DNA of 64,000 bases from an uncultured Clostridia bacterium (GTDB lineage: Bacteria > Bacillota > Clostridia > Christensenellales > UBA1242), in NCBI GenBank assembly GCA_930990515.1, contig CAKNPS010000003.1:49006-113005 (forward strand). Direction: 5' to 3'. Made by a program: the position numbers and the translations under genes. The notes under the pieces were generated by a model, which was given only the letters and a program-made list of their open reading frames with translations, ran no database searches and had not been told where the DNA came from. Positions 18,700 to 42,212 of the stretch are shown here, in pieces. Position 1 is the stretch's first letter. Each line of letters begins with the position of its first letter.

Positions 18700-21600
18700 A
18701 TGAAAAAAATTGCGTTTGGCTTTTTAACTTTGATGATGCTTTTTGGAGGTGTTCTTCTTTCTGCGTGTGGAGAAAGGAATATCTCTATTTCAGTTTCTGC
18801 AAGCGAGGTGGAAGTCTATACCAATAATGCGCAGGAAGATAGTTTTGAAAATATCTCTGTGACACTTAATGGCTCAGATGATGGCATAGGGGTGCAACTG
18901 GAATCTCAAAACGATGTGGTTGAAGTTACAGAACCTACAAGAGATAGAAGTGGGAATTACACTTTTACAATTAATGCTTTGAGAAGTGGTAATGCAACAG
19001 TTAGAGTATATTCCATTGAAGACCCTTCAGTTTATCAATATATTAATGTTACATCATACACATATCTTGAAGAACTTGAAAGCCTTGACTTAAATGACCA
19101 AGATGGTAGAAGTGGACTTTATGTTGTCAAAGGAGATAGTAACGGAAAAGATTTAACTCCAACAAATTTCTTTAATTTATATCCATTAGATGCCAATGTT
19201 ACAGATATTGTTTGGACATTTGCTGAAAATGGTGGAACCGTTTTATATCAAAGCAACACACAAGTTGTTGCAGAGATTGTTGATAATCAAACCTTATATG
19301 TTTCAGAAAATTGCACTTCTTATTTAACGATTGATTTGGTTGCTTCTTTTGTTCAAATGCCAAGTGTTACTGGAAATGTAAGTTTAGAAGTGATTGATAG
19401 TTCAAGTATTGCTGATTTTTATATTGGTGCAAGTGATGAAGACAGAATTTTAATTCGCAATGATGCTACAGAATCAACTGTTAGCGGAAGAATTGTTGTT
19501 AATACTATCGATGATGAAATGACTGCAGAACTTGTTGCTTATCAAATGAGAAACGGAATGTATATCGAACTTCAAGATTATAGCGACTATTTTACAGTTT
19601 CATCTATGACTTATAATTATGAGAATGATCAAAGAATTATTGATTTTACGATTGATGCTCAAGTTGACCCTGAGAAACAAAGATTAAGCGGAGATATATA
19701 TGTGGCATTTAACCTTAAATATAGTGCCTTTACTTATGAAATTTCAACCGCTTCTTCATTAGATGACCTTGTTCTTATTTCTACATATTTTATTCCTGAA
19801 ACCTTATTACTTCGTGACTCAACTATGAGTTCTATATCTGGTCGCACAATTGATTTGTATTCAAATTATTTTACAAGTTATGGATATGAAGTTTTAGTGA
19901 ATGTTTATCCTGATGATGTTGTTTTGAATAACAGTAACTATCAAATTTTAATTAATGCTAATAGCACAAACATGGCGCAAAATCCAAATTATTATTTGAA
20001 AGTTTACAAGGAAGATGACCTTTTAAATCCTATAACTTTTACACAAAGTGGAACAAGCACAACTTGGATTTCGGAAGAAATAGAAAATGGAACTTCGGTT
20101 TACTTGCAAGCAGGTGATGGAAATTATGGTAGCATTGCAGACTTTGCTATTCAATTTGTGGCATCTGGAAATGGAACTGCGACAGAAACCATTTATGCAA
20201 ACTTATACAATATTACCGAAAATGAAAATCTTGACATTCGCGAATATACTATTGGTGAAGACGGAGAACATATTCTTGGTGACGAATTTGCGTTTAATCA
20301 AAGATATTATATTTCTTCAAGTGAAAATTCTATGTCAAGAGATTTCTATTTAAGAATTTATGGTTATTCAACTTCAACTGGTCTTAACTTGGTTTATAAT
20401 CAAAACAACAATTTCACAGTTTCTTATGTGGAAAATGGTAGATATGAAGACGTTAATAATCCTGATAATTCTTATGTTGATTTAATTGTGACAGTAAATG
20501 TTACTCGTGAAGGATATGAAGGGGCGTTTAACTTCTCATTCTCACATCAAACAGGAGCGACAAGTGAAACAATTTCAATCTTTGCTTTTGCACCAATTGA
20601 AGATGTTGTTTTAGTTAACAATAGTGAAGGTTCGACAAACATTTATTATGATGAAACAAATAGTCAAGGATTTGTGTATGAACAAGTTGATGGACAAACA
20701 ATCGTTTCTGAAGACCCTAACTATACAACAAACCACACATTATCTTCACTTTTAATGTCAGCAGGCTCAAATATTAATCTTGGTCTTGGCTATGGAAATG
20801 CAACTTTAAATATTGATGAATATACAGCAGGCTACTATTTTGCTTATATGGACTATGATACTTTTATGGGAATTAATACCTTTGAAGAAGGTGTTGACAC
20901 TGAGGCTATATTTAACAATCTTGACCCATATAGAGATGGTTATAACTATAACTTTATAACTAATAATAACAACTATTTCACATATTCAAATGGTTATTTG
21001 ACTGTGGCAAGTGAACAAGGAGAGTTTGTTATTTATGTTGCTGTCATTGTTCAAGGTTATGATGAAAATCACGATGAACTCAACTTAATGAGAATTTTCA
21101 AACTTGAAAGTTTCTATCCAGTAAATTCTTTAAGAAGCAATGTTACTGATGCAAGATTATATGCTAGCGAAAGCGTAAGTTCGACTGATGCGAATTTGAC
21201 TTATACTGATGTTTCAGTAAGTTTGCGTCTTGATAAGAGTGCTCCTACATATATTGATTTATCAAATTTCTCAATTTCTCTTAGAAATGGAATAACAAAT
21301 GTTGTTTCTAACGAAGAAGATGGTTTAACCTATGATACTGACTCAAATGGCAATATTACAAGGGCATATTTAAACAGTGTGACAATTGAAAATGAATATG
21401 TAACACTTTCTGGTTTTGAACTTGTGTATGCTGACCAAACAAGTCAAGGACTTAACAGTTTGAGATTTAGAATTACTGCAAAATCAACCGAGTTTAATTC
21501 AGTTTGGAATGAAATTGTAAATTTGACTTATGAATTAAATTATGAAAATGTTTTAGTTTCAACTCTTAGCACTAATATTAATATTGAAATTATACAAGCA

Positions 21601-24600
21601 GACCGTGTTGAAAATGTGACTTGGATTAATGAAACAGAAGATGGCGAAATATATCTTAATATTGCTTCAAATGACCCTGCTGAACAATCTTTCATAATTT
21701 CAACATCAATTTCACCAAATTATGCGGAAAATCGTAATTTAACTTATCATTATCAACAACATAATCAAGGCGAAAGCGTTCTAGAGATTAGAACTGACTC
21801 AATAAGTCAATCATTTAGTTTGACGATTGGAAATCGTAGTCGTGGTGGCTATGGTTATCTCTATATTTTGCCAGAAGATATGGTTAAAATTGTGAATGGT
21901 ATAAGACAAATTGTCATTTACGGTGTTGATGAAAATGGAGATATTGAAACTCAAGCACAATATTTACCACTTTCTCAAATTGATAATTATTATGAAGAAT
22001 TGATTGGTGGAACTTATGAAACAGAATATGGAACTATTGCCAACTACTTTATAAATAATTATAATGAAAGAGTTTATTATAGTGATATTATTTTAAAAAT
22101 AAGAGTTACAGTTGCAGATGGATTGAGCGAAGAAACGGCAATTCGAGTTTATTCACAATCTGACTTAGAAAATGTTGAAAACAATCTTTATTATAGAGTT
22201 ATGAATGATATTGACCTTGTGAATTTTAATTCGATTGGGGAAGGAACAACTTTTTCTGGAATGATTTTTGGAAATACTGATGATGTTACTTTGTCATTTG
22301 CAAATAATAGTGAAAGTTTGGTGGATAGACTTAGCGGAACAATCAAAAACTTGACTATGACAGGTAATGTTGTCGGTGGCGGATTTGTTGCTAATTACAT
22401 TCAAGAAGGCGGACTTGTTGACAATGTGACAGTTGATGTAAATTATGAAAATGGCAATTATCTACCAAGCACTTTAACTCAAGGTGTGGCTATAGATGGA
22501 AATTATTATGCCGGCGGTATTGCAGGTCAAAATATGGGAACAATTTCAAATTCCAATGTTTTTGGTTTGGAAATTGATTTAAATCAAAATGGTGGTTATA
22601 CAAACACTGTTGCTGGCGGAATTGTTGGTTATAACCTTGGCGGAAGAGTGGAAAACTGTGGCGTTGAATTTTATAACTTTATTAGGACAGAATCTACGGG
22701 CGAAGAAGATGTTGAAGCAACCTATAACAACAAAATCACAGCAAATGTGGTTGGTGGTATCATTGGACAAGGTGGGTATTCTTTGAATGCGTCAACAGGG
22801 GCTGTTAATGATATTCGAATTATAAATTCTTATGTTTATGCTTTCAATTTAATTTATCAAGATGGAGATAGTCCAGCCGACATTAGTGGAGATTCTTATA
22901 CTTCAGTTTTGAATGGACAAGACGGAGCAGTGGGAGCTTTTGTTGGAAGTCTTAATGTTAATGGAAGTGCAGGAGGTGCCACATATTTTAGATTGGTAAA
23001 TTCCTTTGCTTTCTTGGGTGACTATAGAAGAAATAATGTAAACTCTAATATTTTTAACGATTTAAGTATAGGGCAAATTAAAGGCTCTGGTTCAAGAGTT
23101 TATCAAAATTCTTACATCACATATTTTGAAATTGTTGGGGAAACAGAAAATACAGGTGATGGCGAAACAACTGTATATAGATATAGACTTAAAATGGACT
23201 ATGTTTTAAATGAAAGCACAACAATAGCAGATTTAAACAATGTGAGAACCCTTGAATATTCAAATATTGATTCAATTGATTATTCTGAATTTGACTCTTC
23301 AGTTTGGGAAACTAATGAAATTGACCAAGATGTCAACTTTGGATTTGCTTATTTAAGAGATGTAAATCAAAATATTGCCGTGTCTGTTGACCAAACAATT
23401 CAAACTGTCGACGGAAAAACAATAAATGCTGATTATGTTGACGGAGATAGTCAAGTTAAGGCAGGAATCTTGTTCTTATATCAAACACAAGAAAATGTTA
23501 CAAATGCTGGTGCTCAAAGCGAAATTAATCGTGCAAACACAATTTCTATCACTGATTTGTTTGGAGTGACTGAAAGAGAAGCACAAAGCCTTTTAATTAG
23601 TGTTGATAGAGAAAACTTTATTGGTTTTACAACTAACAACATAACCGCTTTAAGAACTAATATTAATTTAGGTCAAACAATCAAATTGACACTTTATAGT
23701 AGAGTCGACTTTAGTGATTCTCAAACTTATGAAATTATGGTTATTAACTATGTTCCAGAATTGACATTGACAACTGGCAACACTGTAATTTCAGACGGAG
23801 ATGTTTTGAATGTTCAAACAAGGTCACAAGAAGTTGACGGCTCTGATAATTCAAGACAAGTGCAAGTTGTTTTAGATTATTCAACCTATTTTAATGGCGA
23901 AGAATATCATCTTGTAAGTGATGATGCTTATAGCTACTCAGTTTCTTATGAAAATAACACTTCTGAAAATGGAGATTATATTTCAAATTATGTTTCAGGA
24001 AATAACATAACTTTCATTGCAAATAGTGCAACAGGAAATGATTATGTTAATACCACAATTAATTTGAATTTTGATAGATTAAAAACAAATTATTCTCAAT
24101 TTAACGATGCGTTAACTAATTATCGCAAGTCCAATTTCTATATTTCTTCATATTTAGGGGCAAATTCTCTTATTGTTGATGCTCGTGATTTTAACATCAC
24201 TCCAGATGAATCTGTTTCCTTTAATGCTGAAATTATTTCTGATAGCAAAGAAGAAGATTTATCTCTTACATTCACTTATAATGATAGAGATTATTTTGTG
24301 GACGAAAATAATCAAGTTGTTATCAATGATAATCTTGTTTTAGACGTTGATTGGACAAAAGAAACCGATGGAACAAGAAATAATTTTAAAGTTGTTATCA
24401 ATGTTAATCGAGATTATAGACATAAAGTTGATGCTACTTATGATTTTGTCATTAGCATCAATGCTTTAAGTCAAAACAACAACACAAATTTATTAAAAAC
24501 AATTAATTTCGTTGTTCAAAAGCAAAGAATTAATAAGGTTAATGTAACTGCTTATACAATTAGTAGTAGAACAATCAATAATTCAAGATGGTATTACACT

Positions 24601-27600
24601 CCAAGCACAACAATTTCTTCGACTTTAGTGCCAGGTTCAGACAGTATTTTAACTTTGGAAGTTAGCCCTAATTTTGCTCATTTCTCACAAATTGAAGTAA
24701 CATATACGGCTTCTTCATCTGGTATGGTTGGAACTGTAGGAATTAGTAGACTGTCATATAATTCAACTTATGGATATTATATTGATTCTTCAACAACTGA
24801 CAACATCACTTCTGGGCTTAGAGTTACTCCAACAGATAGCGATTTACAAAATGGAGTTTATTACTTTAGAATTTATGTTTCTTCAAGTTTTACATCAAAC
24901 AGCAATGTTACATTGAGATTTACTTTCTATGATGAAACAGAAAATGTTGGCTCTTACACTTATAATTATGTTATTGATTATTTAAGTTCAGCTGAAGTTC
25001 TTGTTGATGGTGCTCACAGTGTTATGCTTGCAAAAGGCGACTCTGCACAAGTTTCCATCACTTTAGACCTTGACCAAACTTTGACTAACAATAGTATTAG
25101 ATTAGAAAACAATGGAACTTCAATATATCTTAGTTCAATCACTGAAGAAGTGACAGATTCTTACAGAAGATACACCGCAACAATTTCAACAAGTGTAACT
25201 TCGAATCTTGCTGATGGAAATTCTACTGGTGCGTTCTATGTTTATGCTTCTGTTTCAAGATATGTCAATGGAATTTTAGATTATGTAGAAAGTTATGCGA
25301 CCGTTTACCTTGTTGACTTCACAATTAATGCAGACGAAACAAAGGTTGTTGGAACAACTGACACAGCAACTTATAATGGAAACACTTATGATGCTTTCTA
25401 TTCCTATATTAATGCTAATCAAACCTTAGCATTTGATTATGTAATTGAACCAGAAACATATAATTTTGACCCTAATAATAACGAAGAATATCAAGCAGTT
25501 TATGGACAAAATGGTCTTATGGCTAAGAGAAGACAATTCGTTCAAAATGGAAGTTATAGAGATGATGTTTCAGGTTACTATATCAATTATTCTTATAATT
25601 CAACAACGGGAACATACACAGAAATTCCAATTGAACAAAGACTTTATTATGTCAATAATGACGGCTCTGCGACTGCAATTTACAATAGTCAAAGAGGGGA
25701 GTTTGTGGAAAATTCTATCATTGAATTTAGTTCTGGAAGCAACGATACTCTTGTTATTAAGGGACTTAGAATTGGCAGTGTTTTACTTAGATTAACGACT
25801 ACAGTTGTCATTGGAAACACAACATTTGAATATAACTATGATTTTGTTGTTGTGATTAGCATTTGGACAGATGAAGAAGTGCCAATGCCAATCTATACAG
25901 CAGAAGAATTCTTAAATTTTGCAGCAGGAAACCCTGATGAACAAGGAAATGTAACAGCGGCTGATTACATTTTGATGAATGACATTGTGCTTGAAAACTA
26001 TACTCCTGTTGACACCACATATTTTAGAAGTTTAGACGGAAATGGCTATCAAATTTATATTTCAAGTTTCAATACTTCTGGTGCAAATTCAACATTAAAT
26101 CTTGCATTGTTTAACCAAGTTGCAAGCACTTCAACAATCAAAAATGTGAGAGTGAACTTATATAACGCTGGACAACTCACAATTAATGTAAATCAATTTA
26201 CAAACATTAATATTGCAGGTTTTGCTTTGACCAACAATGGAACGATTTATAACTGTGAAGTTGTGGCATATTATGATGAAAATCATTCAGTTTCAAGAGT
26301 TTCAGGCAACACTGGTATTGTTGTAAACTTTGTTAGAGGAAATGGAACAGATTACGTTCATTTAACATCTCAAGATATTAGTGTAAGCAATGTCAATATT
26401 TCTGGTTTTGTAAACACTAATAATAGCATAATAACAAACAGCCGTGTTGGTGGAACTAGCATTGGAACCGTTATAGAAACAGATGATCCTAATCTAAATT
26501 ACTATAGTGAAGTATTGCTTCCACTTTTCACAATTCAAGGACAAGGAACTGTGGCAGGTTTTGTAAATAACAATGTGGGAACAATTTCAGCTTCTTTTGC
26601 AAATAATGTTCAAATCAACAATCAAATGAATTCGACAACATCAATAACTTCTGGTTTTGCTGTTACAAATACGGGAGACATTAACACATCTTATACACAA
26701 GGAGCAGAGTCAGAAAGTTCATCTTCAAGTGATGGTAGAACATATTATTTTGATGGTTCAACAATTGCTTCGACAGGTAGAGTTGCAGGATTTATCTATA
26801 ATAACTCAGGTATTGTTAAAAATTCTTATGTTAATATCGCTTTTGAAGTGGATATCTCAAGAAGTTATTTATCTGCGGGCTTTGTTTATCAAAATAATGA
26901 AGGCGCGGAAATCACTCTTTGCTATGCTGCTGCAAAAATGTCATTAACTGATATTAACGAAATGAGTTTCTCGGGTGTTTCTGAAAATGGAACAACAAGC
27001 TTAAACACTGGAACAATTTCAAATTCTTATTACTATAACACCAGTCGTGTGGACACAACAACACAATCAAATTTTGATGTTGGGGCATATTCCATCACTG
27101 ATGTTGGCTACGAATCAACTTTCTATCGCTTTAGTTTTGCGTCTGAAGAAAATGCTTATGATGGCATCTGGACAATGACTGACGATGGAATTACTTTGAC
27201 AAGTGCAAATAAAATTGCTTTCTCTAATAGATATATTGTTTATAATTCTGAAGAAGAAGATGATTATTATTTCCTTTATAGAACCTTAACAGATCTAAGC
27301 AATTATAGACAAATTGACCTTTCTTATGGTTCTGAAAACAACCCAATCATCATTCGTTCGGCTGCTGATTTCGCAAAAGCAACTGGTAAAGCACAAGAAA
27401 CTGAAATTTCTTCATATAAGCGTTATTACAACGATACTGAAGTGTTTGGAACATATCGTCTTGTGAACGATATTGATTTCTCTGAAATCGACCAAAATGT
27501 TTCTGGGGAAAACAACATCTTGTTGACCACAACTTCTAAAACTTTCTCGGGAATTTTAGATGGTAACTCTTTCACAATTTCAAACATCAGTTTAGGTGCT

Positions 27601-30600
27601 TCAACAAGTATGGAAAATTATGGACTTTTTGCAAGACTCGAAGATGGTGTGATTATGAATCTTGGGCTTCAAGTGGTTTCTGTTCATAACGCAAATGCAA
27701 GAATTGTTGGAACTTTGGCTGGAACTGCGATAGATTCAAGACTTATTGCCATCAACCTTTCTCCAAATGAAAGAAGAGATGATGAAGAAGCAATTGAAGC
27801 AGTTTCAATTGAAGGTTATAATATTGTTGGTGGTCTTGTTGGTATTGTTATGGGAGATTCTATTCTTAACGATATAACAGTTACTAACATTGATGTTAAC
27901 TCTGCTTATTACTATGGAGCAAACAAATCAATAACTTACAATAGTAATTTCACTGGCGATAATTTAAGACAACTTGTATATCTCGGTTCATCATTAACTT
28001 CACTAGTTCGTTCACTTTCTTATGCAGGTGGTGTTGCTGGTTATGTGGACATATATACAAATATTGGTGATGGCTATGTTAAATATTCTTCTCAAACCGA
28101 TTTGACTGATTATGAAGTTGTTTCTATCAAAGTTTTAGATTCTGTTGATATTTTTGGCGAAGTAGCGGGCGGATTGTTTGGTTACCTTGGTAGGTCATTA
28201 ATGGCTTATGATTTAGGAATTGAACTTGATGCTGATATGGCTTTGAATAGTGCTTCATATATTACATCTAAAAACCTTTATGCTGGCGGTATTGTTGGCG
28301 AAAGTTATGCTGGTCTTTATGCCGTTTATGCTAAGTATGAAGACACCCTTCAATCTTCAATAGAAAGAGGTATTTATAATTACTATAATGGTGGCGGTTC
28401 TGAAAGAGGACAACTCAGCATATTCTCTTATTCCAGCCTTGACACAAGACATCAAGGGCGTTATAATAGTCCGCTCTATATTGGCGGTCTTGTCGGCTAT
28501 GCTGGAGCAGGCTATATCGCTGTCGGCTATAATAAATTGAATGTAACATCAAATATTGAAAGAAGTGATTACTCTTACACAACAGAAGCAGTTGGCGGAA
28601 TTGTTGGCTATATAAGTTCAGATTACAACTATGATGCTGATTTCATTTCAGAAAATGTCAATATTTCTTACTACTTGTATGAAGTTTACTTTAGCGGAGT
28701 TCTTTATTCAGAAACAAATGCTAATGCTGGTGGTATTGTTGGTGATATAGATGTAAATAACGACATTGCTTTAAATAAAGTAAATAGTATTCCTTATTAT
28801 GACACTACAGAATCAGTAAATAATGTTTATTCATTAGTTGCAGGATTTAAAGAAGAAGATAATGGTAATCTTGTTGATACTTTAGATATGTCCGATGCTA
28901 TCTACCTTCTTGATGCAAGAGGAGATTATCATAATGTAATCAATTCACTCAATGCATCAACTTCTGGTTCTGTAAGAATGAGCGTGGCAACTTCTAATCA
29001 ATATCTCATTGATGCTGGCAAACAATCATCTTATATTAATGGACTTAGCGATGATGAAGTTATTCCAAGTGGGCTATCTTATCGTCCAATTTTGGAAATG
29101 GAATCTTTAGCAAATATTCCAACAACAGATGGTGTTGACAGAGCACATTCTGCAATGGCTTCATATTTCCTTCAAAACAATTGGGACGATACTCGTTGGG
29201 AACATAAGTCAGACCAAATCTTCCCTGACATTATTCTTTATCCTAAGGACGAAGTCATTTGGCTTGATGCCGATCCTGATAGTATTGCAAGTATGCTTGA
29301 AGCGGTTAAAGATAGACCAAATGCAACTGTTGTTGTTAGAGGTAGAGTAAACGAAGATGTTGTCGGTGATTATGCCGATGTAGACTTAAGAGGATATGAA
29401 GAAATTTCAAGTTTTGGTGGAACATTTATTTCATACAACAACTATATGCATTCAAATGATGAAGGCATCATTTCTAGCACAGCGAATCAAGTAAGACAAA
29501 TTAAACGCGGAACTAATGGTGGTTCTGATACAAGTTATGTTATTGGCGGTTATGAAGGCGATGAAGTTGGACTTATTTTGAGTTCTCCACTCTTCACTTC
29601 GACTGAGTCAGGTCTTACAATTGATGGTTTAAACATATATCTTGCTGTTGATAGTAATGGAGATAAAGAGGCAATTGGAGATAATTCAGATGATTCAACC
29701 GAAATAAACCTTACTGATTCTCCAGCGATAGTTTCAGGGACACTTACAAGTGCAACACTTATTGATTTAAATATCTTTATCAATGGAAACTTGAATATTA
29801 CATCTTCTCAAACAAATATTGGACTTATTGCTGAATCTGCAAACTCAACAAATTTCCAAAGCATCAATTTCATATTTAGATATGAAAATTTAGGAACAAC
29901 AGTAAATAATCCAAAGATAAATTTAAATCTTGAAGCAAACACAGCAGATAGTAATGGTGTAAGAAACTTTGGGCTTTTAGTTGGCGAACTAGAACAAAAC
30001 AATGTTTATAATTCAACGACGGTTTCTAACATTATTATATCTTCAGAAGAGAAAAATAATAGATCATCATCGCATGATAATCTCAAGTTAGAAGCTAATA
30101 TAATTAATAATAATTATGTTAATAGTGAATATACAACTCCTGGAAATATTAATAATTCTTTAAGTTTTGGTTTCTTAATTGGACAAACAAGCATTACAGA
30201 TGGTGAAACTTTGCCTTTGAATTTTGGCATCAACAATTTGATTGACGATACTTTATCTGGAATTAACTTGACTATAGAAGGGGCAGAAGTTGAAAATGCA
30301 GGGAATAATAATGCTAATCAATCGTTGAATGATTTATATTTTGGTGGATACATTGGTAGGGCAAATTTAAGAACGGTTTCTCTAATTGGTGGAGTTAATC
30401 CAGTTTCCCTTATCAAAAACTTTATTGTTCATCAAAAGATAAGTGTTAATAATAATATGTATTTTGGACTTGGTTTTGGTGAACTTACAGGAAATGGTGA
30501 ATTTTCATTAAATGCATTATCTACAGGTTCACAAAATACAGGACTTGATGTTACAGGTGGATTATATCAATTTGAAAGTGTGACAACTGGAACCACTCAA

Positions 30601-33600
30601 ACTTCAACAAGCGATCCAGTGGTAAATGTTGGTGGGTTTATTGGAAGTGCTGATTTTACAATTTCGTTGACGAGTGCACTCAATGTTAACTTTGATGTTA
30701 AAGGTAACCAACCACTTGAAGATGCAGAGGGGAATGAAACCACATTTGAAGATTATGATAAAGGGGTTACTTCACAAAATAGTATAAATGGAATTTATTC
30801 CGCAAAAGATTTTAATAATGTTGGTGGTGTTTGGACAACTGAAACAAGTAGGACAGCTGATAATGAGTATACTGCAGAAGTCTATACTGTAAATGGTCAG
30901 AGCAATATTGGTACTTTTGTTGGAAGAATTAATAGTGGAACGTTCTCATTTAGTGAAATTTACATTAGTGAGTATAGTGATATACAAATTAGTAATGCTT
31001 CGGGTTCTACAAGTTCTAATTCTCAGTTAAATGAAACAAACATTGGAACAATTGGTTTGATTGAAAATGGTATGTTTGCAATTGAAAATGGTTCAAGTAA
31101 ATATAGTGGAGCAAACTATTTTGTTGAAACTAATGGCATTGCTAATGTTGGTGGATTGATTGGAAAAGCAAACGCTCTTTCGCAATTTAGAGTGCAATCT
31201 TATATGTATGATGGAACTGTTGTTTCATTTGCAAACACTTTGAACTTTGGTGGACTTGCAGGGAATGTAAAAATTACCAATTCTGGAAATCTTCAGTCGG
31301 TGATTTATGGTGGAACACTTAAAAACTTTGTTAAGTCAAATAATGATAATCAAACAGTAAATAATATCTACGTTGGTGGAATTATTGGTTCGGTTGATGT
31401 TTCGGGAATGTCTGGAAACAATAATTTAAATATCAATGGGGCATATTCTTATGGAGATGTTTTTGTTGCTTATGAATCGGCAAATGCAACTCTTAATTTG
31501 ACAACATTTATGTTTGGTGGAATCATAGGTTCAATCAATGACGGCGATGTTAATCCTAATGTTAGTCTTGTAAATTCTTATTCTTTAATGACGCCTTTTA
31601 ATGATAGATTGGTAGATGATGGGCTTAACGGTGCTCATTATAGAATAAACGCTTTGGTTGGACAAAATGAAGAGTTAGTAAGTTATGGACAATATAATTA
31701 TTATTCTTCTGGCGTTACAATGTCTTATCAATACGAAGGCGAAGCAAACAACATTGATGTTTCTTATGGCTTTAATGATGAAAATTATTATGGCTATAGT
31801 GCTCAAGAAATTGAAGGTAATGGTAATAATGCAGATTTATCTGGACAAATATCTAATGATAGTGACAGCGAAGGTATTATTGAAGTAATTAAAAATGCTA
31901 TTCAAGGCTTTACAACAATGTCTCAGGAAGTTAGAACCGCAGAAGGTGCTAAACTTAATCCTACAAGGGTTGTTGAAAGTGGAGATAGTGGCGATGATGA
32001 GGTTTCTTTTGCAGGTATAAGTTCAAATAGTAATACTGCAATTGATGATATGCAAATTAAGTGGTATTATTTCGAAGAAGATATTAATATTGCAGACGAA
32101 GATGCAGGCTCTATTAATACCAACAGTTTGAACAACGTTGTGATTGTCGGAAATGGTAAAACTATAACTTACACTCCAACTTCTTTAGAAAATAATCAAA
32201 TTTCTGTCTTTAAATCCATTGGGACGACTGATGACACCTTCTCAGCAATTTCTGGTCTTGTTGTTGATATTGACTTTGATTTTGATTTGGTAAGTGACAA
32301 TGTTCAGATGGCTGGTCTTGTTCAATATATTGGACAAAATGCCACAAATCCTTCAATTATGATTTATGCTGTTGGAGTTACAGGCAATGTTGAATTAGGT
32401 TCAACAGGAACAGCAAACTTTGGCGGTATTGTTTCAAATATGTATCGTGGAATGATTTCAAACTCTTATGCAGATTTGGATATCTTCTATCACGCAGGAG
32501 CAGATCGTCGAGATTCTGGCGGACAAACTTATTATTTTGCTCAATCAACATTAAGTGCAATCACAAATGTTCAAGATGGCTTGGTGGAAATTTATAACAC
32601 TTTTGCTATGGGAAATGTTAAGAGTTATGTTCCAGCAAATATCTATACATTTAATTCATATTCAACTTATAATGAAACACAAACATATAGAACAAGAATT
32701 TTTGACTCTTATTCTGTAATGCAAGTGGAAACAGAAGACTATGGTTTTAATAATAATTCTGGTGATGAAGTAGTTTCTTATGGAAATTACAATATATCAA
32801 ATTTCCAAGCATCAACACTTTCAAACAGTTATTATAGTGATTATTCTGGATTAATTGGAGTTAAAACAAGAATAGAAGGAACGAATTATATAACCGAAAT
32901 TGATTCTTCAAATAGAAATGGAATAAGATCACTTGTTGACAATATGTCCATTGGCTACAATACTGATAATGAAGTAAGATATAAAATTGACAATACTACG
33001 GGAGATATATATTCTCCATGGTTCTATTCTCCATATAGAAACTATGGCTATGGAACAACTGGATTTGTTTATTTAAGAAACACTTCAACTTATTCTCGCG
33101 AAAAAACAAACATAGAAAGCACTGCAGTTCTGACAAGTGGAGAAAATGCAACTTATGCATACAATACTTATGAATATACCAAACTTTCTGAAGAAGAACT
33201 TGCAACCTTAAATAAAACAACAGGTTCTTATACAATTACTATTGAAGAAGGAAATACAAATTCAAGAGATTATTTCTTGGCAATTACTAATGTTGGAAAA
33301 TTTAGACAACTTGTAGGTTTAGACGGCGAAAACCATAAATTCTTCTTAAAATATGACATCAATTTAAGTGATTTGTCTAAAAATAACGATACATCTTGGA
33401 ACTATAATAATAGCAATTTAGGTTCAACTAACAATATGGTTGTTCTAGACGGACAAAACCATTTAATTGAATTTGAAAATGCTAAAGGTTTGTTTATTAA
33501 TGTTTATGCTAATATGGAAAACCTTAGAGTTATAAACTATGAAGATATAAACACTCCTAACTATACAGAAGCTGTAAATGGTTATAGATACTTCGGTGTT

Positions 33601-36600
33601 CTTGCTGGAACTTATACTGGAAAACTTATTAATGTGACAGTTCAAGGAGATATTGAATTTACTGGCGCAACTGACTATGTTAATAAAGTTGGTGGTGTTG
33701 TAGGTAAATTTACTGGAACAATTATTTCGGCTGAAAATCTTGTCAATATTAGCATAGAAAATGGTGCAAATGTTGTTGGTGGTATTGTTGGCGAATTTAA
33801 TGGCGATGCCGATGTTGACGACGGATTAGTAGAAGATGTTGAAACTGTTGCTGGGGATATTGTTAATACACTTAAGGATGGAACAATTTCTTATTCGTCA
33901 AACAATGGAACAATTGTGGCAAAAACAAGTTTATTTAGTAGTACAACAGGAACTGGAACACCAAGCAGTATGACAACTGGGCTTGTGGCTACAACATCTC
34001 ATAACCCTTATAACGATGGTGGAGATAGTTCTGGAAGTATCTCAACACAAAATGAACCAGTGGATAGAAATAGCAATTTAGTTACAGTTCTTGGCGGTAT
34101 TGCAGGGTATGTTTCAGAAGGAACTATTGACCACGCATATAATAATGCAACTGTAATGAATAATTATGATGACTTAGATAACTATACTTGGGAGAAAAAT
34201 CTTGCAAGCGGTGGTATTGTTGGTTACTCTGAAGGTAATATTTCAAATTCATTAAATATGGGATATGTCGTTTCTGGAAACAACAGAAATACAGGTGTGG
34301 CTCTTGCTGGTGGTATTGTTGGCTATTCTACAGGTAAAGTTTCTTATTCTTATAACGATGCTAAAGTTCAGGCAGTAAGTTACATTAATGCAAGTCATTA
34401 TAAGATTACAATGGAAAATCTAACTTATGAGGAAAAAGGGCAAGCCGATTCTGGTTCTAACAAAGTGGATTTCACATTCAAAATTGAATACAACACTTAT
34501 GAGACAACTGAACACAATGAAGAAACTGGTGAAGAAGTCACTGTTGATGTGAAAATGGATAGGCTTGTTATGGCATATGGTATTGGATATATCAATGGTG
34601 GTTCTGAAGAAGGTAATGCAAACTTTGACACTGAAGAAATTGTTAACGATGGAAACATTGGCTATACTATAAGAAGAATAACTCCATCTTTTGAAGCTCA
34701 AAGATATTCAGGTGGTGATACTTCAATTTTAAGTGTAGTTGATAATGTTGATAATATAGTTGAAAAATATGATTATTATTTAGCAACAGGTGAAGATGGT
34801 GAAGATGGGGCTGACATAAGAATTAGTGCTTATGATTCTTATGGTTTCCCAAGTAGATTTAATTACTATTATTCTTATTCATTTGATATTAAAGGATTTA
34901 ATCATAATTATAATAGTTCGTTTGGTCCATTTATGAGTTTTATGCTCACTGATCGTTCTCCAAATACTACATTGGGAGATACTCAAATTTCAAATTACAG
35001 TGAAACAACTTCTTTAAGTGACAATATTTATCCAGGCGGAGATTCAACATATTACTTCTCAATTCCACTTTATAACACGACAACTAAGTTTATTAATGAT
35101 GGGAATTCTTATGAAGAACTTGTTGAAGATATCAGTAATTTAAACAGCAATCTTAATCGCACAAATAGTGATGATGTTGATGAAACAGATTTTGATAATC
35201 TTTATAGTGACATTAATGCAGTAAGAGAAGCAGAAGATGATGTTACTGATGAAAGCATCAATGTTAATGGTAAAGAATATACTTATGTAAGTTCAAGTGG
35301 CGATTTCACATCTTTCACTGGTGGTGTTGGCATAAGTGGAGCTATCCCTATTGAAGTTCCAGATGTAGGTTATTCTTATGAAGATGATCTTTTGGACCCA
35401 GGTTCTTTGACAGTTCGACCTATCCGTGTGTCATCAATTGATTTTGGTTTACACATAGATGAAACAAGCGGAGTTTCAGTCAATGATGATCTATTAACAA
35501 ATCTTGAAGCAATTGGTGCTAATGTTAGAATAAGCGAAGAAAATGGCTCATATTTCCTTAACTATACTGCTTATTATAATAGAAGTGAACTTGCAAATGC
35601 ATTGGGATTAACTTCAGGTAGTAATGTTCAAAATGTTATAGAGGCTATTCAACTTGATGTTCAATACAACTTAATTTATCAATATTCAACTGAAATCACT
35701 TTAACAAAACGTAATTTAAATAAATTTACTAATGCAAGATTAGGTTATGGTGTGGAAGTTGATATGATAACCAACACAAATGGTTATCAAGCACTTTCAA
35801 TTGGAGAATATTTAGATGAGTATGGTTTTGCAGACTATTATAATGGAATCTTAAATCGAGATGAAGAATTAGATAATTTAGAAGTTTATTTCACTAACAG
35901 TGGCACAAATTACTATTATGATACTCAAGATAATATTTTTGTTGAAATGGGCGATAGTGTTCCCGCAAATGTTTTAACCTTGGATTTAATTAGAGATGCA
36001 AGTTTATCTAATGATAATGAAAATGATAAAATTGCAGATTACTTAGGTGTTCTATTGCGTTTCAGCAATGATTTGAAAAGAAACAGATTCATTAATTTAG
36101 TTACAAATACGGCAAGTCCTTACACAATGAATATAGTTTATTATGTTCAAGGAAATGGTGCTTATGATCAAACAATTGGTGGTTCAACAACTTTTAATGC
36201 ATCATATAGTAGAGCAGTAAATTTCCCAACAAATGATATATCAAACCCAAATGGATCATATGTTACTAAAACTGATAATGGAAATAGTGCGGTTTTTGAG
36301 TTTATTGTTGATAGTTTTGATGGATCCGATGAAGTTGTAATTAATTTTACTTCAAGTGGTTCAAGTGGTGATAGTTCAAGTGCAACCATAACTTTAAATA
36401 TAGATTATAATGCTTCAACTGTAGATGACAGATATTCATATACTTATGGTAGTGGTGTTTCACAGGATTATAGTACTGGTAATTATTATATATTTGGTAC
36501 AGGATCAGATGTAAGCACATGGCCAGTAAGGTTGACAACTGGAGTTTCAGGTGAAGGTAATCCAACCATTATTTTAACAAGTAATAATGATAATGGTAGA

Positions 36601-39600
36601 ATATATATTACAAATGCAAATGTGAGCAGAATTTCATTCACAGAATATGAATTAGATCTTCCAAGCGAATATAATAGGACAACAACAATTGAAGTTAATG
36701 GTAATAATTATGATGTAACAGGAATCTATAAATTAAAATTGAGCGGTAATCAAATTCTTGATGAAAATGATCAGGTAATTGATGGTTATACTTATTCTAA
36801 TGGAACTTTAACAAGAGAACAAGGCGTTGATTCTAATGTCACATTGTATTATACTTATGATAGGGCAGAAACTGAAGATGGACTTCAAGTTGCATCGGCT
36901 AGCACTTCAGATGGTGGCATCAACATTGTTTATATAGCAAATGATGGTTTCTATTATTCTCTTTACGAAGATGAGAATGGAAATTTAGTAAACGGCACAG
37001 AAGATAAAGGCAGTGGAAATTATGTTCAAATGATTGATGGAGATTCTGATTCTGCCGCCACAAGCATTAATTACACATTCTATAGCACTGGAACAATTAG
37101 TTCTTTCCATGGAATTAATATTACATCTGGAAATTATATTGTTACAGAAGCAAAGTATCCAAATGGAGCATTAAGTTATACTCTAACTAAGGTTGATGCA
37201 GAAAGTCCTATTTTAGTAATATATCATATAATGGATATAGCCTATAAGGTAGACGAAAATGGACAAACAACTTCTGAAGTTATCCAATCGGGCTATGAAT
37301 ATGTTATTGATTATACAGGTTCCTCGGCATCTTATTATATGGTAGAAATTGCAGGAGAAAATACATATAACATAATAGATACAAACAAATGGGATAATTT
37401 AGAGAACTACTTCTTAGATGAAGACTATTTAAATTCATATTACATGCAAGGTGGCTCTGGCAGTATTTTAGATTATACATATGATATGGATCCTTACTTT
37501 AGTTTTAAATATTCTAAATTGCTTTCTGCTAACACTGTTTTAGGGCAAGAATATTCACTTAGAACAGGACTGGGAGAACATGATACTACTTCAGGAATAG
37601 TTAATACTTTTAGTTACATTACCAGCAGTGGAGGAAATATTACTGGACTGGAATTTAATAATATAAGATATCAAGTTCAATCATATTCATTAAATGTTAG
37701 TTTAAAGTTAGGAGAAGGGTATGAAACAAGAATAAATTATAAAGCGGAAGTCGTAACTGAAGGAGAAGAAATTCAGATTTATTATTTAGATAAAAATAAT
37801 AATAGAATTGCTATTGTAGAAAGCGAAAATATTGTTTCAGGAAGTGGAGAAATAGAAGATGTAAATCAATATATAGTTTTAATAGAAGATGTAAATTTAA
37901 ATGGAACAATAATAAGAAGTGGAACTAGGATCGCAGAAATTTTAGATAATAATGAAATTGAGTTTGTGAATGCTTCTTATGAAAATATTTTAGGGACAGA
38001 AGAACAAACCATACCTTTAGGTAGTATTATGACTTATACTATGCAATTAAGAACTTCTGATAATAATATAGTCACATTAACAATTGAATTAGGTTTAGAT
38101 TCTTTACTATTTACTAACGATTATACTTCAAAATTAATAGCAAATAATATTACAGAAAATACATCTAATTATGGCACGACAATTCCAAATGTTGAATTTA
38201 CGGAAAATAGTTTAGCATCTTACTCTGGAAATGAAGTTGTGTTTAATGCTGCAAATTTTGGTCCTACTGAAACAGAAAGTTCAACAGAGATGTATTTTGG
38301 ACCATCGTCAATAACTTTTGATGTTGGAACAGAAGATATTATTGATTCTGGAACTGTCAATGGAAATATAACACTAAGCACTTCTTCATCAAAGGATAGT
38401 TTCATAGCAACTGGTTTGGAAAATAATGTTGATAATACGAATGATAAACAACATTCTCTTTCAATTGGAGTTGATGATACAGCTCAAGAATTTGGTTCAT
38501 TTACTGATTATTATGAATTTGAATTAACAATTCCATTTATATTTAATAATCAAAAAGATGAAACTTTAACTGCTGATGATTTTGCATCATCAAATGGTAA
38601 CATCATAATTTCTGATAATATTTATATTCAAGATATGTCAACAACAATAAATGGATTAAATACTGACACTATGGAAGTTAGAGGTTATAATTATTTAATA
38701 ACACAAAAACTCTCTCTTGGAACTTTCTATTATGCTGTTCGTGTTGGGGCAACAGGCTATCTACAAGATTTAGTCTTTGCAATTTCTGCTGATGCTGATC
38801 CTAATGATGAAAGAGCAAGTGTAAATGTTTTCGACGTTGTAAGTAGTGAAACAGGTGGAACAAGAGTTTCAAATATCCTAATTTATGGAACAATAAGACA
38901 AATTTCTGTTGATAAGTTCTATAATATTGGAACTGATGCCAATGGTTCTATAACAATTTTAAATGCTTCTTCATTAAATGCAACATCATTAGAATCAAAT
39001 ATGTCATTAATTGGTGCCGATGGACTATCTGGAAATAGTGTATGGCAAAATGGAGACGGATTTGATAGTGGAAATGGTGAGAGCGTTCTTGTTACTTTAC
39101 AATCAAAAACAGGAAATGTAACTCTTGCTGACAACTCCATCTTAGTTGCTGGCAATGGTGGCAATGGCAGTAATGGGACTGATGGAAGCCGCTCAAATAA
39201 CTTTAATAGACCTAAAGGCAACAATGGTGAAAACGCTGGAAATGGTGGTAATGGCGGTGTTGTTTCTGGAGAAGGAATTTCAATTTCTGGGGCTGACGGA
39301 ACGGCTGGCAATGGCGGTAATGGTGCCGATGGATTGAATGCCACAACAGATTCAAATGCTGGCGGTGGCGGTGCCGGTGGAGATAGTGGTACTACTGGTG
39401 CTAAAAACAAAATGACAAATCGTCAATATAATAAAGATATCGCTGGAAGTGGTGGCTCGGGAGGACTAGGAATGTTCTATAATGGTAATGCTGATTATGA
39501 GAGTGATTCTGATTATTATCATGAATACTCATATTCTGGAAATGCAACACAACCCGATAAGGGTGATTCCACCAAAGGTGGCGGTTATAATGACAATGGT

Positions 39601-40847: not shown

Positions 40848-41570
40848 ATGGACAATAGTGATGTTTCACATGAAGGACATAGAAAAAGACTTTTGGACAC
40901 TGTCATTAAAGCAGGACTTGAAAATTTAAGTGAAATTCAAATTGTGGAATTTATGCTCACTTATGTCTTTCCGCGAGGGGATGTCAATCCTCTCGCACAT
41001 CGTCTCCTTGACGCTTATGGAACTCTTGGCGGCATTCTTGATGCTGAACCTGTCGAACTTATGACAATTAAAGGTATTAATGAAAGGAGTGCAAAGAAAA
41101 TCTCCAGTTTAAGTTCCCTTTTCTTCGCTTACACCACTTCAAGAATGAGAGGACATGGTGTTTATGAAAACGAAGGAGAAATATTGGACTTGGTGGAAGT
41201 TTCACTGAGATTTCGCACCACAGAAAATTTTCTTATGCTTGGTTTTAGTCCTGCCAATATTCTTTGCGGAAGTAAAAGAGTTGTTTCTTCCAAGACTGAC
41301 GAAGTAAGTATTAACATTCTAGATTTCATGGCTTTCATATCTTCTTGCAAACCTACATCTTTGGTTGTTGCACACAATCATCCTTATGGGAAGGCAAAAC
41401 CTAGTCCAAAAGATGACAATGCAAGAAAATTGATTGAAAATCTTTGTTTCAATTGTGGAATTAGACTTTTGGACACCTACATTATTGGCGAAGACGGAGT
41501 TTATAGCCAAGGTCGAAAGGAATTTAGAAGAAAATATTGCAATGTTGACGACTTGGTTGATTTGTTCTAA
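40848..41570 (+). CDS. radC: RadC-like JAB/MPN domain protein
   Basis: AGGAG SD, ATG 23 nt after the giant gene stop. HEGHRKRL, HhH region IKGINERSAKKI and JAB motif VVAHNHPYGKAKPSPKDD. Confidence 0.85.
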   Translation: MDNSDVSHEGHRKRLLDTVIKAGLENLSEIQIVEFMLTYVFPRGDVNPLAHRLLDAYGTLGGILDAEPVELMTIKGINERSAKKISSLSSLFFAYTTSRMRGHGVYENEGEILDLVEVSLRFRTTENFLMLGFSPANILCGSKRVVSSKTDEVSINILDFMAFISSCKPTSLVVAHNHPYGKAKPSPKDDNARKLIENLCFNCGIRLLDTYIIGEDGVYSQGRKEFRRKYCNVDDLVDLF

Positions 41571-41601
41571 AAAGTTTAAGGCATTTACCTTTGAAATCAA
41601 C

Positions 41602-41642
41602 AAAAAAAGATAGTGGAAATATAACTTCACTATCTTTTTTTT
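41602..41642 (+). terminator. intrinsic terminator closing the giant-gene/radC unit
   Basis: A-run, GATAGTG-12 nt-CACTATC hairpin, T8 run. Confidence 0.7.
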
Positions 41643-41798
41643 ATTTAATAATTAACTAAATTATATTTTTTATTTTAAAATAATAAAAAATTCATAATAA
41701 AATAATTAAAAATATTTTTTTAATCGAAATTATCGAATTTTTAGTCATTTTTTTATTTTTGAATTATTTTTATTTTATATTAATTAAAAATATTTAAT

Positions 41799-42212
41799 TT
41801 AAAATAATTTTAAGAAAAAATATGTGACAACTGCTCCTATTATTGTTCCAAGAAGTGCAAACAAAAATGATAAAAGAATTGTGAGCCGATTTGTTTTTTG
41901 TTTTTCTTTTTTTGTAATTTTTATTGGTTCTTCAATTTCTTCAAAGCCAAAAGGGAGCACAGCAAGGCAGTAGGTGTCGTCATCATCATATTTAATGGAA
42001 ATCATATCTTGTCTTTCAAGATGTGTTAGAATGTGTCTTATTCCTTCGCTATCCGTTCTATAGTGTTTCGGCAATAAAGAGATGATATCCGAACTTTCAA
42101 ATATCTTATAACTCCCACCGCTGCTTTCTTTTGCCAGTATTTTCAAAACAAGTCTTGACTTTGTGTCTAGCATAACTATATTTTTGCTTTTTAATAATTT
42201 TTTATTCTTCAT
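41799..42212 (-). CDS. hypothetical winged-helix-like protein with C-terminal TM anchor
   Basis: 137 aa. Soluble N-terminal ~95 aa (LVLKILAKES...IRHILTHLERQDMISIKYDD). Basic linker KKEKQKTNR, then TM LTILLSFLFALLGTIIGAVVTYFFL. Confidence 0.5.
   Translation of the reverse strand: MKNKKLLKSKNIVMLDTKSRLVLKILAKESSGGSYKIFESSDIISLLPKHYRTDSEGIRHILTHLERQDMISIKYDDDDTYCLAVLPFGFEEIEEPIKITKKEKQKTNRLTILLSFLFALLGTIIGAVVTYFFLKLF

What the first reader, a model, noticed from the sequence alone, without database searches (positions are those of the whole stretch)
22114..34400. At least six divergent GLUG-motif modules with a recurring head motif
Each module opens with a head of the form (I/V)x(I/V)x(S/T)xx(D/E)(F/L) ... 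Yx(L/V)xNDID(L/F) ... FxGx(L/F)DGN(G/S)xxI. Module 1 near 22114 has AIRVYSQSDLENV..YYRVMNDIDLVNF..FSGMIFGN. Module 2 near 25871 has PIYTAEEFLNF..YILMNDIVLENY..FRSLDGNGYQIYIS. Module 3 near 27328 has PIIIRSAADFAKA..YRLVNDIDFSEI..FSGILDGNSFTISN. Weaker versions occur near 29221, near 32056 and near 33265 (FFLKYDINLSDL..VVLDGQNHLIEF). Each head is followed by many turns carrying GG(I/V/L/F)(V/I/A)G, for example 22612-22632, 28282-28305 and 34306-34329. This matches the GLUG motif family, which is seen in large streptococcal surface proteins and proteases and forms beta-helical arrays. More than 20 such motifs in one chain, grouped in separately headed modules, is unusual. The modules are divergent enough to suggest distinct specificities rather than recent duplication.
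Basis: partly seen in the sequence, partly recalled or inferred. Interest (0 to 1): 0.55.

Follow-up and report, generated by a model that had tools for sequence, protein, structure and literature searches.

The report
Giant surface lipoprotein with beta-helix modules
The flagged region is the middle of one 7,374-residue surface lipoprotein gene of an uncultured gut-type Clostridia bacterium and encodes six ancient, very divergent copies of a known beta-helix domain (the GLUG domain of IgA1 proteases); the modules are real, but thousands of uncharacterised bacterial proteins carry this domain, many with more copies, so it is an ordinary member of a known kind.

Summary
Window 22114-34503 lies inside one intact gene (18700-40824, 7,374 aa, lipoprotein signal peptide). 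It encodes six homologous modules, each with an N-terminal "head", GLUG-type turns and usually a Trp/aromatic tail. The strict GG[IVLF][VIAL]G motif occurs 19 times against 0.4 expected. Profiles of 24 orthologs link all six modules (hhalign 88-98%). A profile built only from unrelated proteins recognises all six. Module 1 models confidently (pLDDT 86) as a beta-helix whose best PDB matches are 3N6Z and the S. pneumoniae IgA1-protease beta-helix. The "head" equals the last ~100 positions of Pfam Peptidase_M26_N.

The claim of rarity fails. The head profile finds 31,324 cluster representatives. Among the 127 unrelated top hits, the median chain has 7 heads and 22 strict turns (maximum 84).

The duplications are indeed old. 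Paralogs share 15-27% identity, yet every module is kept in order in 23 orthologs. "Distinct specificities" remains untested.

There is no protease site or other catalytic signature, so the likely role is a rigid adhesive or spacer stalk. This is a new member of a known kind, of low to moderate interest. A side finding is more intriguing: the last ~1,400 residues are a recombining, strain-variable cassette.

The parts
18700..40824 (+). Giant gene: 7,374-aa precursor of a surface lipoprotein. The ORF is open from 18667, the start ATG is at 18700, and the stop is included.
   Evidence: Single ORF. AAGGAGG lies 7 nt upstream of the ATG. Intact 7,355-7,374-aa versions occur in other assemblies in the same radC/uvrB/uvrA context. 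There are 23 collinear orthologs.
18700..18768 (+). Lipoprotein signal peptide MKKIAFGFLTLMMLFGGVLLSAC, with lipobox L-S-A-C
   Evidence: Hydrophobic segment followed by Cys. The lipobox is conserved in nearly all orthologs.
22114..23430 (+). Module 1 (aa 1150-1588): head aa 1154-1256, three strict GLUG turns (aa 1283, 1317, 1363), tail VWETNEIDQDVNFGFAYLRDV
   Evidence: Pfam GLUG 23.7 bits, above the 20.5 cutoff. External module profile scores 41.1 bits over nearly its full length. AF2 pLDDT 86.2, pTM 0.90, beta-helix. Foldseek finds 3n6z and 7uvl at prob 1.00. hhalign to canonical modules gives 99.4%.
25873..27210 (+). Module 2 (aa 2403-2848): head aa 2403-2535, six variant turns (A/S)GF(V/A)xxNxGxIxNS, tail GIWTMTDDGITLTSAN
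   Evidence: External profile scores 39.9 + 11.2 bits. m1-m2 hhalign 95.8%, aligned head to head. No Pfam GLUG hit.
27319..29247 (+). Module 3 (aa 2885-3527): head aa 2887-3031, six strict GLUG turns, tail YFLQNNWDDTRWEHKSDQIFPDIILYPK
   Evidence: External profile scores 77.5 + 21.8 bits. Pfam GLUG is sub-threshold at 12.1 bits. m3-m6 hhalign 97.8%. The AF2 model is poor (pLDDT 41), yet its top PDB hit is IgA1 protease.
29254..31818 (+). Module 4 (aa ~3530-4384): one long array with a degenerate head (core aa 3569-3590, nt 29371-29436) and five strict GLUG turns at aa 3989-4284
   Evidence: Ortholog consensus y.DiDLr....i.nF.G.liSY. m4-m6 96.6% and m3-m4 95.8%. The external profile recognises only the rungs at aa 4155-4384 (13.4 bits), not the head.
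32008..33168 (+). Module 5 (aa 4448-4834): head WYYFEEDINI...VIVGNGKTITY, one weak turn FGGIVSNMYRGMISNSY, tail WFYSPYRNYGYGTTGFVYLRN
   Evidence: External profile scores 12.5 bits over profile positions 31-341 of 357. m1-m5 92.3% and m5-m6 87.5%, both aligned head to head.
33259..34503 (+). Module 6 (aa 4865-5279): head FFLKYDINL...VVLDGQNHLIEF...GLFINVYANMENLRVIN, five strict GLUG turns
   Evidence: Pfam GLUG 29.5 bits. External profile scores 35.4 + 27.9 bits. hhalign to m3 97.8% and to m1 97.3%.
18769..22113 (+). N-terminal ~1,100 aa with no family assignment (weak Ig-like hints); conserved in orthologs
   Evidence: Only a weak NUP210 Ig-like hit, E 0.003. 32-69% identical in orthologs.
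23431..25872 (+). About 810-aa spacer between modules 1 and 2, with no family assignment
   Evidence: No Pfam or NCBIfam hit. 37-75% identical in orthologs. No similarity to the modules.
34504..40821 (+). C-terminal third with no family assignment. From about aa 6000 (nt ~36664) it is a strain-variable cassette with a Gly/Asn-rich stretch and hydrophobic Gly-zipper segments.

Best explanation
Shown: nt 22114-34503 encodes six homologous modules inside one 7,374-aa lipoprotein of an uncultured Clostridia bacterium. Each module is a GLUG-type right-handed beta-helix. This is the same domain as the beta-helix of the N-terminal domain of M26 IgA1 proteases and of PDB 3N6Z. The six copies arose by duplications older than the radiation of at least 23 orthologous lineages, and they are under purifying selection. 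Inferred: the protein is lipid-anchored by its N-terminal Cys and extends from the cell. The beta-helix modules act as rigid, non-catalytic, elongated binding and spacer elements, so the protein is an adhesin-like stalk. Each module offers a different surface, and together they project the poorly conserved, strain-variable C-terminal third away from the cell. No ligand is known.
For: Motif enrichment: 19 strict turns against 0.42 expected. Pfam GLUG passes its cutoff in m1 and m6. All six modules are linked by ortholog profiles at 88-98%, while controls reach at most 31%. A profile built from 120 modules of unrelated proteins hits all six (12.5-77.5 bits; shuffled maximum 0.7) and nothing else in the protein or in the window. 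m1 orthologs against canonical modules: hhalign 99.4%, E 1e-21, heads aligned to heads. Canonical modules hit Pfam Peptidase_M26_N exactly on their heads. By sequence they also hit 3N6Z (1e-28) and the IgA1-protease beta-helix (5e-21). The AF2 model of m1 has pLDDT 86.2 and pTM 0.90 and is all short strands. Foldseek finds 3n6z, 7uvl_P and 7jgj_A at prob 1.00. In IgA1 protease this beta-helix is a non-catalytic mobile gate (PMC7695701). Surface location: the signal peptide and lipobox are conserved in orthologs, and the composition is strongly acidic and Asn/Ser/Thr-rich. Constraint: dN/dS is 0.2-0.4 for m5 and m6 between strains. GLUG proteins of gut archaea have been proposed to be adhesins (PMC9723798).
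Against: Adhesion is inferred from analogy and location only. No ligand, no expression data and no localisation data exist. Only module 1 has a confident model; the module 3 model was poor (pLDDT 41) and modules 2, 4, 5 and 6 were not modelled. The head of module 4 is not recognised by the external profile. Pfam GLUG itself fails on modules 2, 4 and 5. Foldseek TM-scores are moderate (0.4-0.5), and enzymatic beta-helices also appear among the matches. The cell-envelope type of the organism is not known from the data.
Confidence: 0.65

Rival explanations
1. The modules are mainly an inert extender. Their job is to hold the strain-variable C-terminal cassette (a receptor-binding tip or a polymorphic effector) tens of nanometres from the cell, as the FHA beta-helix does in CdiA. 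Module divergence would then reflect drift or antigenic variation, not separate ligands.
For: The C-terminal ~1,400 aa switch abruptly to 51-75% identity with dS 0.4-0.7 between strains whose modules 4b and 5 are ~99% identical. The C-termini of orthologs fall into at least two barely related groups. Gene content just downstream, between radC and uvrB, also varies between strains.
Against: No toxin, lectin or other domain is recognisable in the C-terminal third. No immunity-like gene was identified; the next gene is a conserved radC. Each module is individually conserved and under purifying selection, more than a mere spacer would need. This rival overlaps with the best explanation and does not exclude it.
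Confidence: 0.2
2. Some or all of the modules are enzymes of the pectate-lyase-like beta-helix class (polysaccharide lyases, hydrolases or depolymerases) acting on host or microbial glycans.
For: The Foldseek matches of module 1 include the fucoidan lyase FdlA (prob 0.98), phage tailspike depolymerases, the AlgE4 epimerase and alginate lyases. Module 1 has an invariant non-GLUG motif, CGVEFYxF, in all orthologs.
Against: The best matches (3N6Z, IgA1-protease NTD) are non-catalytic. The enzymatic matches have TM of 0.3 or less and mostly E above 0.01. No CAZyme or lyase family is detected by Pfam or NCBIfam; the only such hit is Pectate_lyase_5 at E 8.2. The residues conserved across orthologs are mostly Gly, Asn and aromatic residues, as expected for the structural core.
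Confidence: 0.1
3. The protein is an IgA1-protease-like (M26 / Zmp) enzyme in which the beta-helices gate a protease active site.
For: The domain is homologous to the gating beta-helix of M26 IgA1 proteases (PMC7695701).
Against: There is no HExxH anywhere in the 7,385 residues, no Peptidase_M26 catalytic domain, no G5 domain and no LPxTG.
Confidence: 0.02
4. The pattern is a compositional artefact of a Gly/Asn/Ser-rich open frame or of a pseudogene.
For: The protein is Asn/Ser/Gly/Thr-rich. Direct self-BLAST finds only two weak internal hits.
Against: Shuffles that keep the composition give 0.4 motifs against 19 observed. The gene is intact in independent assemblies and in 23 orthologs. dN/dS is below 1. 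The structure model is confident.
Confidence: 0.01

Closest known systems
Beta-helix of the N-terminal domain of Streptococcus pneumoniae / Gemella haemolysans M26 IgA1 proteases (PDB 6XJA, 6XJB, 7JGJ, 7UVL, 7UVK; Pfam Peptidase_M26_N + GLUG)
   Same: The domain is the same: an N-cap head followed by GLUG rungs. Canonical module profile to these chains gives E 5e-21 to 6e-17. The module 1 model matches them at Foldseek prob 1.00.
   Different: Those proteins have one beta-helix attached to a zinc metalloprotease, are LPXTG-anchored and carry G5 domains. Here there are six beta-helices, no protease site (no HExxH), no LPxTG, and a lipoprotein anchor instead.
BACOVA_03286 of Bacteroides ovatus, PDB 3N6Z ('putative immunoglobulin A1 protease'; a solenoid noted as GLUG-like in PMC4021314)
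   Same: It is the best structural match of module 1 (E 2.9e-4, TM 0.41/0.51, 388 columns) and the best sequence match of the canonical module profile (1e-28).
   Different: It is a single-module protein of about 360 aa from Bacteroidota with no known function. Identity to module 1 is only 17%.
Uncharacterised giant multi-module GLUG proteins from metagenomes (for example P0022 with 8 modules, P0024 with 14 heads and 84 turns, P0023 and P0025 with 18-19 matched head stretches)
   Same: The repeating unit is the same (head + GLUG rungs + W...YP.L tail), many units are strung in one chain, the proteins are giant, and they carry secretion signals.
   Different: In many of them the modules are regular and directly tandem. 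Here the six modules are at the limit of detectability to each other (15-27% identity), differ in length (about 390-860 aa), and are interrupted by a spacer of about 810 aa. Only three of the six heads are seen by the external head profile.
Beta-helical surface adhesins and stalks: PfbA of S. pneumoniae, FHA/CdiA, autotransporter passenger domains
   Same: They share a right-handed beta-helix used as a rigid extracellular binding or spacing element. PfbA appears among the Foldseek matches. The variable C-terminus recalls CdiA.
   Different: There is no sequence relationship and the Foldseek probabilities are low (0.05 or less for PfbA). The secretion and anchoring systems differ. No toxin or immunity pair was found.

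Membership tests
GLUG motif family (Pfam PF07581) | Match to the PF07581 profile at or above its gathering score (20.5 bits) | tested here: met
   Module 1 scores 23.7 bits and module 6 scores 29.5 bits. Module 3 scores 12.1 (below the cutoff). Modules 2, 4 and 5 have no hit. Scans of 4,000-aa pieces found nothing. The feature is met for the protein, not for every module.
GLUG motif family (Pfam PF07581) | Repeated (A/G)GG(I/L/V)xG turns far above chance, arranged in arrays | tested here: met
   19 strict motifs against 0.42 expected. About 25 profile-detected turns, all within aa 1277-5231.
GLUG-type beta-helix domain (IgA1-protease NTD / 3N6Z type; Pfam Peptidase_M26_N C-terminal part + GLUG) | Profile-level homology of whole modules to canonical modules of unrelated proteins | tested here: met
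   The external 120-module profile hits all six modules (12.5-77.5 bits; shuffled maximum 0.7). m1 orthologs against canonical modules: 99.4%, E 1e-21. Canonical modules hit 3N6Z and IgA1P by sequence.
GLUG-type beta-helix domain (IgA1-protease NTD / 3N6Z type; Pfam Peptidase_M26_N C-terminal part + GLUG) | N-terminal cap ('head') homologous to positions ~148-250 of Peptidase_M26_N | tested here: inconclusive
   PF05342 does not hit the window modules directly. It does hit canonical heads, which align to the window heads. The heads of m1-m3 are detected by the A3 profile, but that profile was built partly from them. The heads of m5 and m6 are supported only by hhalign. The head of m4 is supported only by the ortholog consensus and is missed by the external profile.
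GLUG-type beta-helix domain (IgA1-protease NTD / 3N6Z type; Pfam Peptidase_M26_N C-terminal part + GLUG) | Right-handed beta-helix fold | tested here: met
   Module 1: pLDDT 86.2, pTM 0.90, regular short strands. The top Foldseek hits are 3n6z, 7uvl_P and 7jgj_A at prob 1.00. Module 3: the model is low-confidence but has the same top hit.
M26 IgA1-specific metalloprotease (ZmpA/IgA1P) | HExxH zinc site and a Peptidase_M26 catalytic domain | tested here: not met
   No HExxH in 7,385 residues. No M26 catalytic-domain hit.
M26 IgA1-specific metalloprotease (ZmpA/IgA1P) | LPXTG wall anchor and G5 domains | tested here: not met
   No LPxTG. No G5 hit.
Bacterial lipoprotein | Signal peptide ending in a lipobox [LVI][ASTVI][GAS]C | tested here: met
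   MKKIAFGFLTLMMLFGGVLLSAC. The LSAC lipobox is conserved in most of the 23 orthologs. Lipidation itself cannot be tested with these tools.
Polymorphic-toxin / CdiA-like delivery proteins | A variable C-terminal toxin domain followed by a cognate immunity gene | tested here: inconclusive
   A variable, recombining C-terminus is present. No toxin family is detected. The next gene is a conserved radC. The variable small ORFs between radC and uvrB were not analysed.
Pectate-lyase-like enzymatic beta-helices (PL/GH28 type) | Match to an enzyme family and conserved catalytic residues in a groove | tested here: not met
   There is no family match; the only hit is Pectate_lyase_5 at E 8.2. Structural matches are weak (TM 0.3 or less). 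Catalytic geometry was not examined.

The most novel reading that the evidence does not exclude
The six anciently separated, individually conserved beta-helix modules are six different ligand-binding surfaces on one lipid-anchored stalk. The stalk presents a recombining, strain-specific C-terminal cassette (Gly/Asn-rich region plus Gly-zipper membrane-active segment). That cassette acts as a polymorphic effector or receptor-binding tip, making the protein a Gram-positive, lipoprotein-anchored functional analogue of CdiA/FHA-type contact-dependent systems in uncultured gut Clostridia.
Probability: 0.08. Interest if true: 0.65.

Novelty: new member of a known kind. Interest (0 to 1): 0.25.

Why it matters
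The result assigns about 4,100 residues of an otherwise unannotated giant protein to a domain with solved structures. It also shows that multi-module GLUG chains are common, with tens of thousands of protein clusters. Practically, curated models miss most of this protein: GLUG alone fails on three of the six modules and on the whole protein. Ortholog-profile methods are therefore needed to annotate such genes. Biologically, this is one more candidate adhesin or surface stalk of an uncultured Clostridia lineage that was seen in many metagenome assemblies. No function is known for any multi-module GLUG protein, so the class is worth studying even though this member is not special within it. The strain-variable C-terminal cassette is the feature most likely to repay follow-up.

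Tried and rejected
- Pfam on 4,000-aa pieces found no GLUG hit. The 28-position model is lost in long queries, so per-module scans were needed.
- BLASTP of the protein against itself was useless because the self-hit masks internal hits. The chunked version found only two weak hits, so BLAST is too insensitive here.
- A head HMM built from three window heads did not detect heads 4-6 above shuffled sequence. Profiles from four orthologs gave only 57-71% probabilities. Twenty-four orthologs were needed.
- Sequence searches of the PDB with modules 3 and 6, and with the shallow profiles A1 and A3, found nothing.
- AF2 of module 3 with a 12-sequence alignment gave pLDDT 41, usable only as a hint.
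- The word-index homolog search with module 1 returned nothing. With module 3 it returned 21 hits and none of the giant orthologs.
- NCBIfam found nothing for any segment.
- MAFFT pairwise identities between modules (23-31%) were rejected as inflated by composition. The hhalign column identities (15-27%) were used instead.
- The IgA1-protease reading was rejected because there is no HExxH.
- Searches for a recognisable C-terminal domain in the window protein and in the L007 ortholog found nothing credible.
- A literature search for GLUG found only passing mentions.

Full report
**What is there**

The finding lies inside one open reading frame, 18667-40824 on the + strand. The true start is the ATG at 18700, which has AAGGAGG 7 nt upstream. 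The product is 7,374 aa and begins MKKIAFGFLTLMMLFGGVLLSAC|GE, a lipoprotein signal peptide with a lipobox. The protein is acidic (D+E 12.6%, K+R 4.8%) and rich in Asn, Ser, Gly and Thr. The neighbouring genes are chromosomal housekeeping genes: mfd, an MprF-like gene and an M23 peptidase upstream, and radC, uvrB and uvrA downstream.

The same locus, with intact 7,355-7,374-aa versions of the gene, occurs in independent metagenome assemblies. The nearest named genomes are "uncultured Clostridia bacterium" MAGs. So this is a real, conserved gene.

**Check of the observation**

The strict turn motif GG[IVLF][VIAL]G occurs 19 times against 0.42 expected from 500 shuffles (maximum 3). All copies lie between aa 1283 and 5215, in four clusters.

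Module 2 instead has six variant turns, (A/S)GF(V/A)xxNxGxIxNS, and module 5 has one weak turn. A turn profile finds about 25 turns above the best shuffled score.

Heads are obvious in modules 1-3 and recognisable in modules 5 and 6. The conserved head core of module 4 is YADVDLRGYEEISSFGGTFISY at nt 29371-29436.

**Are the six units really homologous?**

Direct comparison barely sees it: chunked self-BLAST gives two hits. The exhaustive search returned 23 collinear orthologs at 31-56% identity, covering aa 12 to about 5400. With 24-sequence profiles for each module, hhalign links all six:

- m3-m6: 97.8% (P 9e-13, 280 columns)
- m1-m6: 97.3%
- m4-m6: 96.6%
- m3-m4: 95.8%
- m1-m2: 95.8%
- m1-m5: 92.3%
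- m5-m6: 87.5%

Several of these alignments start in the heads. The best pair involving the N-terminal or spacer control segments reaches 31%.

As a largely independent test, I built a profile from 120 modules of 121 non-orthologous proteins. It scores all six window modules above the shuffled maximum of 0.7 bits: m1 41; m2 40 + 11; m3 78 + 22; m4 13 (rungs only); m5 12.5; m6 35 + 28. Nothing else in the protein scores above noise, and no other ORF in the window is hit.

**What the module is**

- Pfam GLUG passes its curated cutoff in modules 1 and 6.
- Canonical external modules hit both GLUG and Pfam Peptidase_M26_N. The Peptidase_M26_N match (profile positions 148-248 of 250) falls exactly on the head.
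- A profile of ten canonical modules hits solved structures by sequence: 3N6Z (1e-28) and the IgA1 proteases of S. pneumoniae and G. haemolysans (5e-21 to 6e-17), over their beta-helix region.
- The module 1 ortholog profile matches the canonical profile at 99.4% (E 1e-21, 248 columns), with heads aligned to heads.
- AlphaFold2 on module 1 with 23 sequences gives mean pLDDT 86.2 and pTM 0.90. The model is a regular succession of short strands, with a short helix in the head and small helices at the C-terminal end.
- Foldseek ranks 3N6Z first (E 2.9e-4, prob 1.00, TM 0.41/0.51). IgA1 protease follows (7uvl_P and 7jgj_A, prob 1.00), then other right-handed beta-helices.
- A poor model of module 3 (pLDDT 41) has the same top hit.

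The conserved tails (W...NFGF.YL, W...LFP.I.L.P, W...NYGY..GF.YL) correspond to the W...YP.L ending of canonical modules. In IgA1 protease this beta-helix is a non-catalytic, mobile gate next to the active site (PMC7695701).

**Is it unusual?**

No. The head profile matches 31,324 cluster representatives at E<=1e-3 and 7,284 at E<=1e-10. Nearly all of the top 150 are giant proteins with 3-19 matched head stretches. Among the 127 that are not orthologs of this protein, my stricter local count gives these figures:

- The median chain has 7 heads and 22 strict turns.
- 98 of 127 have at least 6 heads.
- 71 of 127 have more than 20 strict turns.
- The maximum is 84 strict turns (P0024).

The ranking favours multi-module chains, so these figures show that such proteins exist in abundance, not how frequent they are. 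What distinguishes the window protein is the opposite of repetitiveness. Its modules are nearly undetectable to one another, differ in length from about 390 to about 860 aa, and only three of its six heads are seen by the head profile.

**Age of the duplications**

Paralogs share 15-27% identity in the profile-aligned columns. Each module is 26-49% identical to its counterpart in the distant L007 ortholog and 48-75% identical in closer ones. All six occur in the same order in every ortholog. Between strains of the same species, dN/dS is about 0.2-0.4 for modules 5 and 6, indicating purifying selection. "Distinct specificities" is plausible but untested.

**Function**

The protein has no HExxH, no M26 catalytic domain, no G5 domain, no LPxTG and no CAZyme family hit. 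So it is not an IgA protease, and nothing indicates that it is an enzyme.

The best-supported reading is a lipid-anchored, elongated surface protein in which the beta-helices serve as rigid binding or spacing elements, like an adhesin stalk. The location and fold are supported by the data. The binding role is inferred by analogy, for example from the suggestion for GLUG proteins of gut archaea in PMC9723798.

Assuming about 25 residues and 0.48 nm per rung (general knowledge of beta-helices), the roughly 4,100 residues of modules would span a few tens of nanometres.

**Side finding**

Strains with an identical radC protein have modules 4b and 5 about 99% identical (dS 0.03 or less). From about aa 6000 onward, identity falls to 51-75% with dS 0.4-0.7. 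This indicates allelic replacement of a C-terminal cassette. The cassette contains a Gly/Asn-rich GNGGNG stretch and hydrophobic Gly-zipper segments.

This third of the protein has no detectable family and falls into at least two unrelated groups among the orthologs. Gene content between radC and uvrB also varies between strains. This recalls polymorphic C-terminal domains, but no toxin or immunity signature was found.

**Verdict**

The protein is a new, uncharacterised member of a known and very large kind.

Noticed in passing
window 36664-40821 (aa ~6000-7385 of the giant protein): Strain-variable C-terminal cassette. Against same-species assemblies L001, L002 and L004 (identical radC protein), identity drops from 97-99% (dS 0.05 or less) to 51-75% (dS 0.4-0.7), starting near aa 6000. 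This indicates recombinational replacement. L003 is identical to the window over aa 4070-7385. In distant orthologs the region is unrelated or only weakly related.
   Followed up: partly
window 38944-40299 (aa 6760-7211): A Gly/Asn-rich low-complexity stretch (GNGGNGSNGTDG..., 19.6% Gly) is followed by hydrophobic Gly-zipper-like segments (aa 7111-7159 and 7182-7211) that could insert in a membrane. Comparable hydrophobic segments were found only in the two closest orthologs, P0041 and P0073. No family hit.
   Followed up: partly
window 41571-43611 (between radC and uvrB); loci L001-L004: Gene content between radC and uvrB differs between strains: none, or 124 aa(-) + 119 aa(+), or 124 aa(-) + 244 aa(+), or 124 aa(-) + 111 aa(+). 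None of these small ORFs has a Pfam hit. They lie next to the variable end of the giant gene.
   Followed up: no
window 40848-41570 (+) and 49948-50691 (-): Two RadC-like (JAB domain) genes flank the uvrB-uvrA pair. The second is identified from the annotation of the matching loci L001-L004.
   Followed up: no
window 22660-22683 (aa 1332-1339, CGVEFYNF in module 1): A motif that is not GLUG-like, with G, E and Y invariant in all 23 aligned module-1 sequences. It sits on one rung of the beta-helix and is a candidate functional site specific to module 1.
   Followed up: no
window 18769-22113 and 23431-25872: About 1,100 aa at the N-terminus and a spacer of about 810 aa have no family assignment, although they are conserved in orthologs (32-75% identity). 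The only hints are a weak Ig-like hit (NUP210 Ig-like, E 0.003) and a weak N-terminal/spacer profile similarity (hhalign 31%).
   Followed up: partly
external proteins P0022-P0171: The head/N-cap motif family is very large (31,324 cluster representatives at E<=1e-3), yet none of the eight sampled clusters carries an informative name (only 'hypothetical protein'). Curated models cover it only through the tail end of Peptidase_M26_N, a name that misleadingly suggests a protease.
   Followed up: partly
window 11892-13841 (+): A 649-aa ORF between mfd and the MprF-like gene has no Pfam hit.
   Followed up: no
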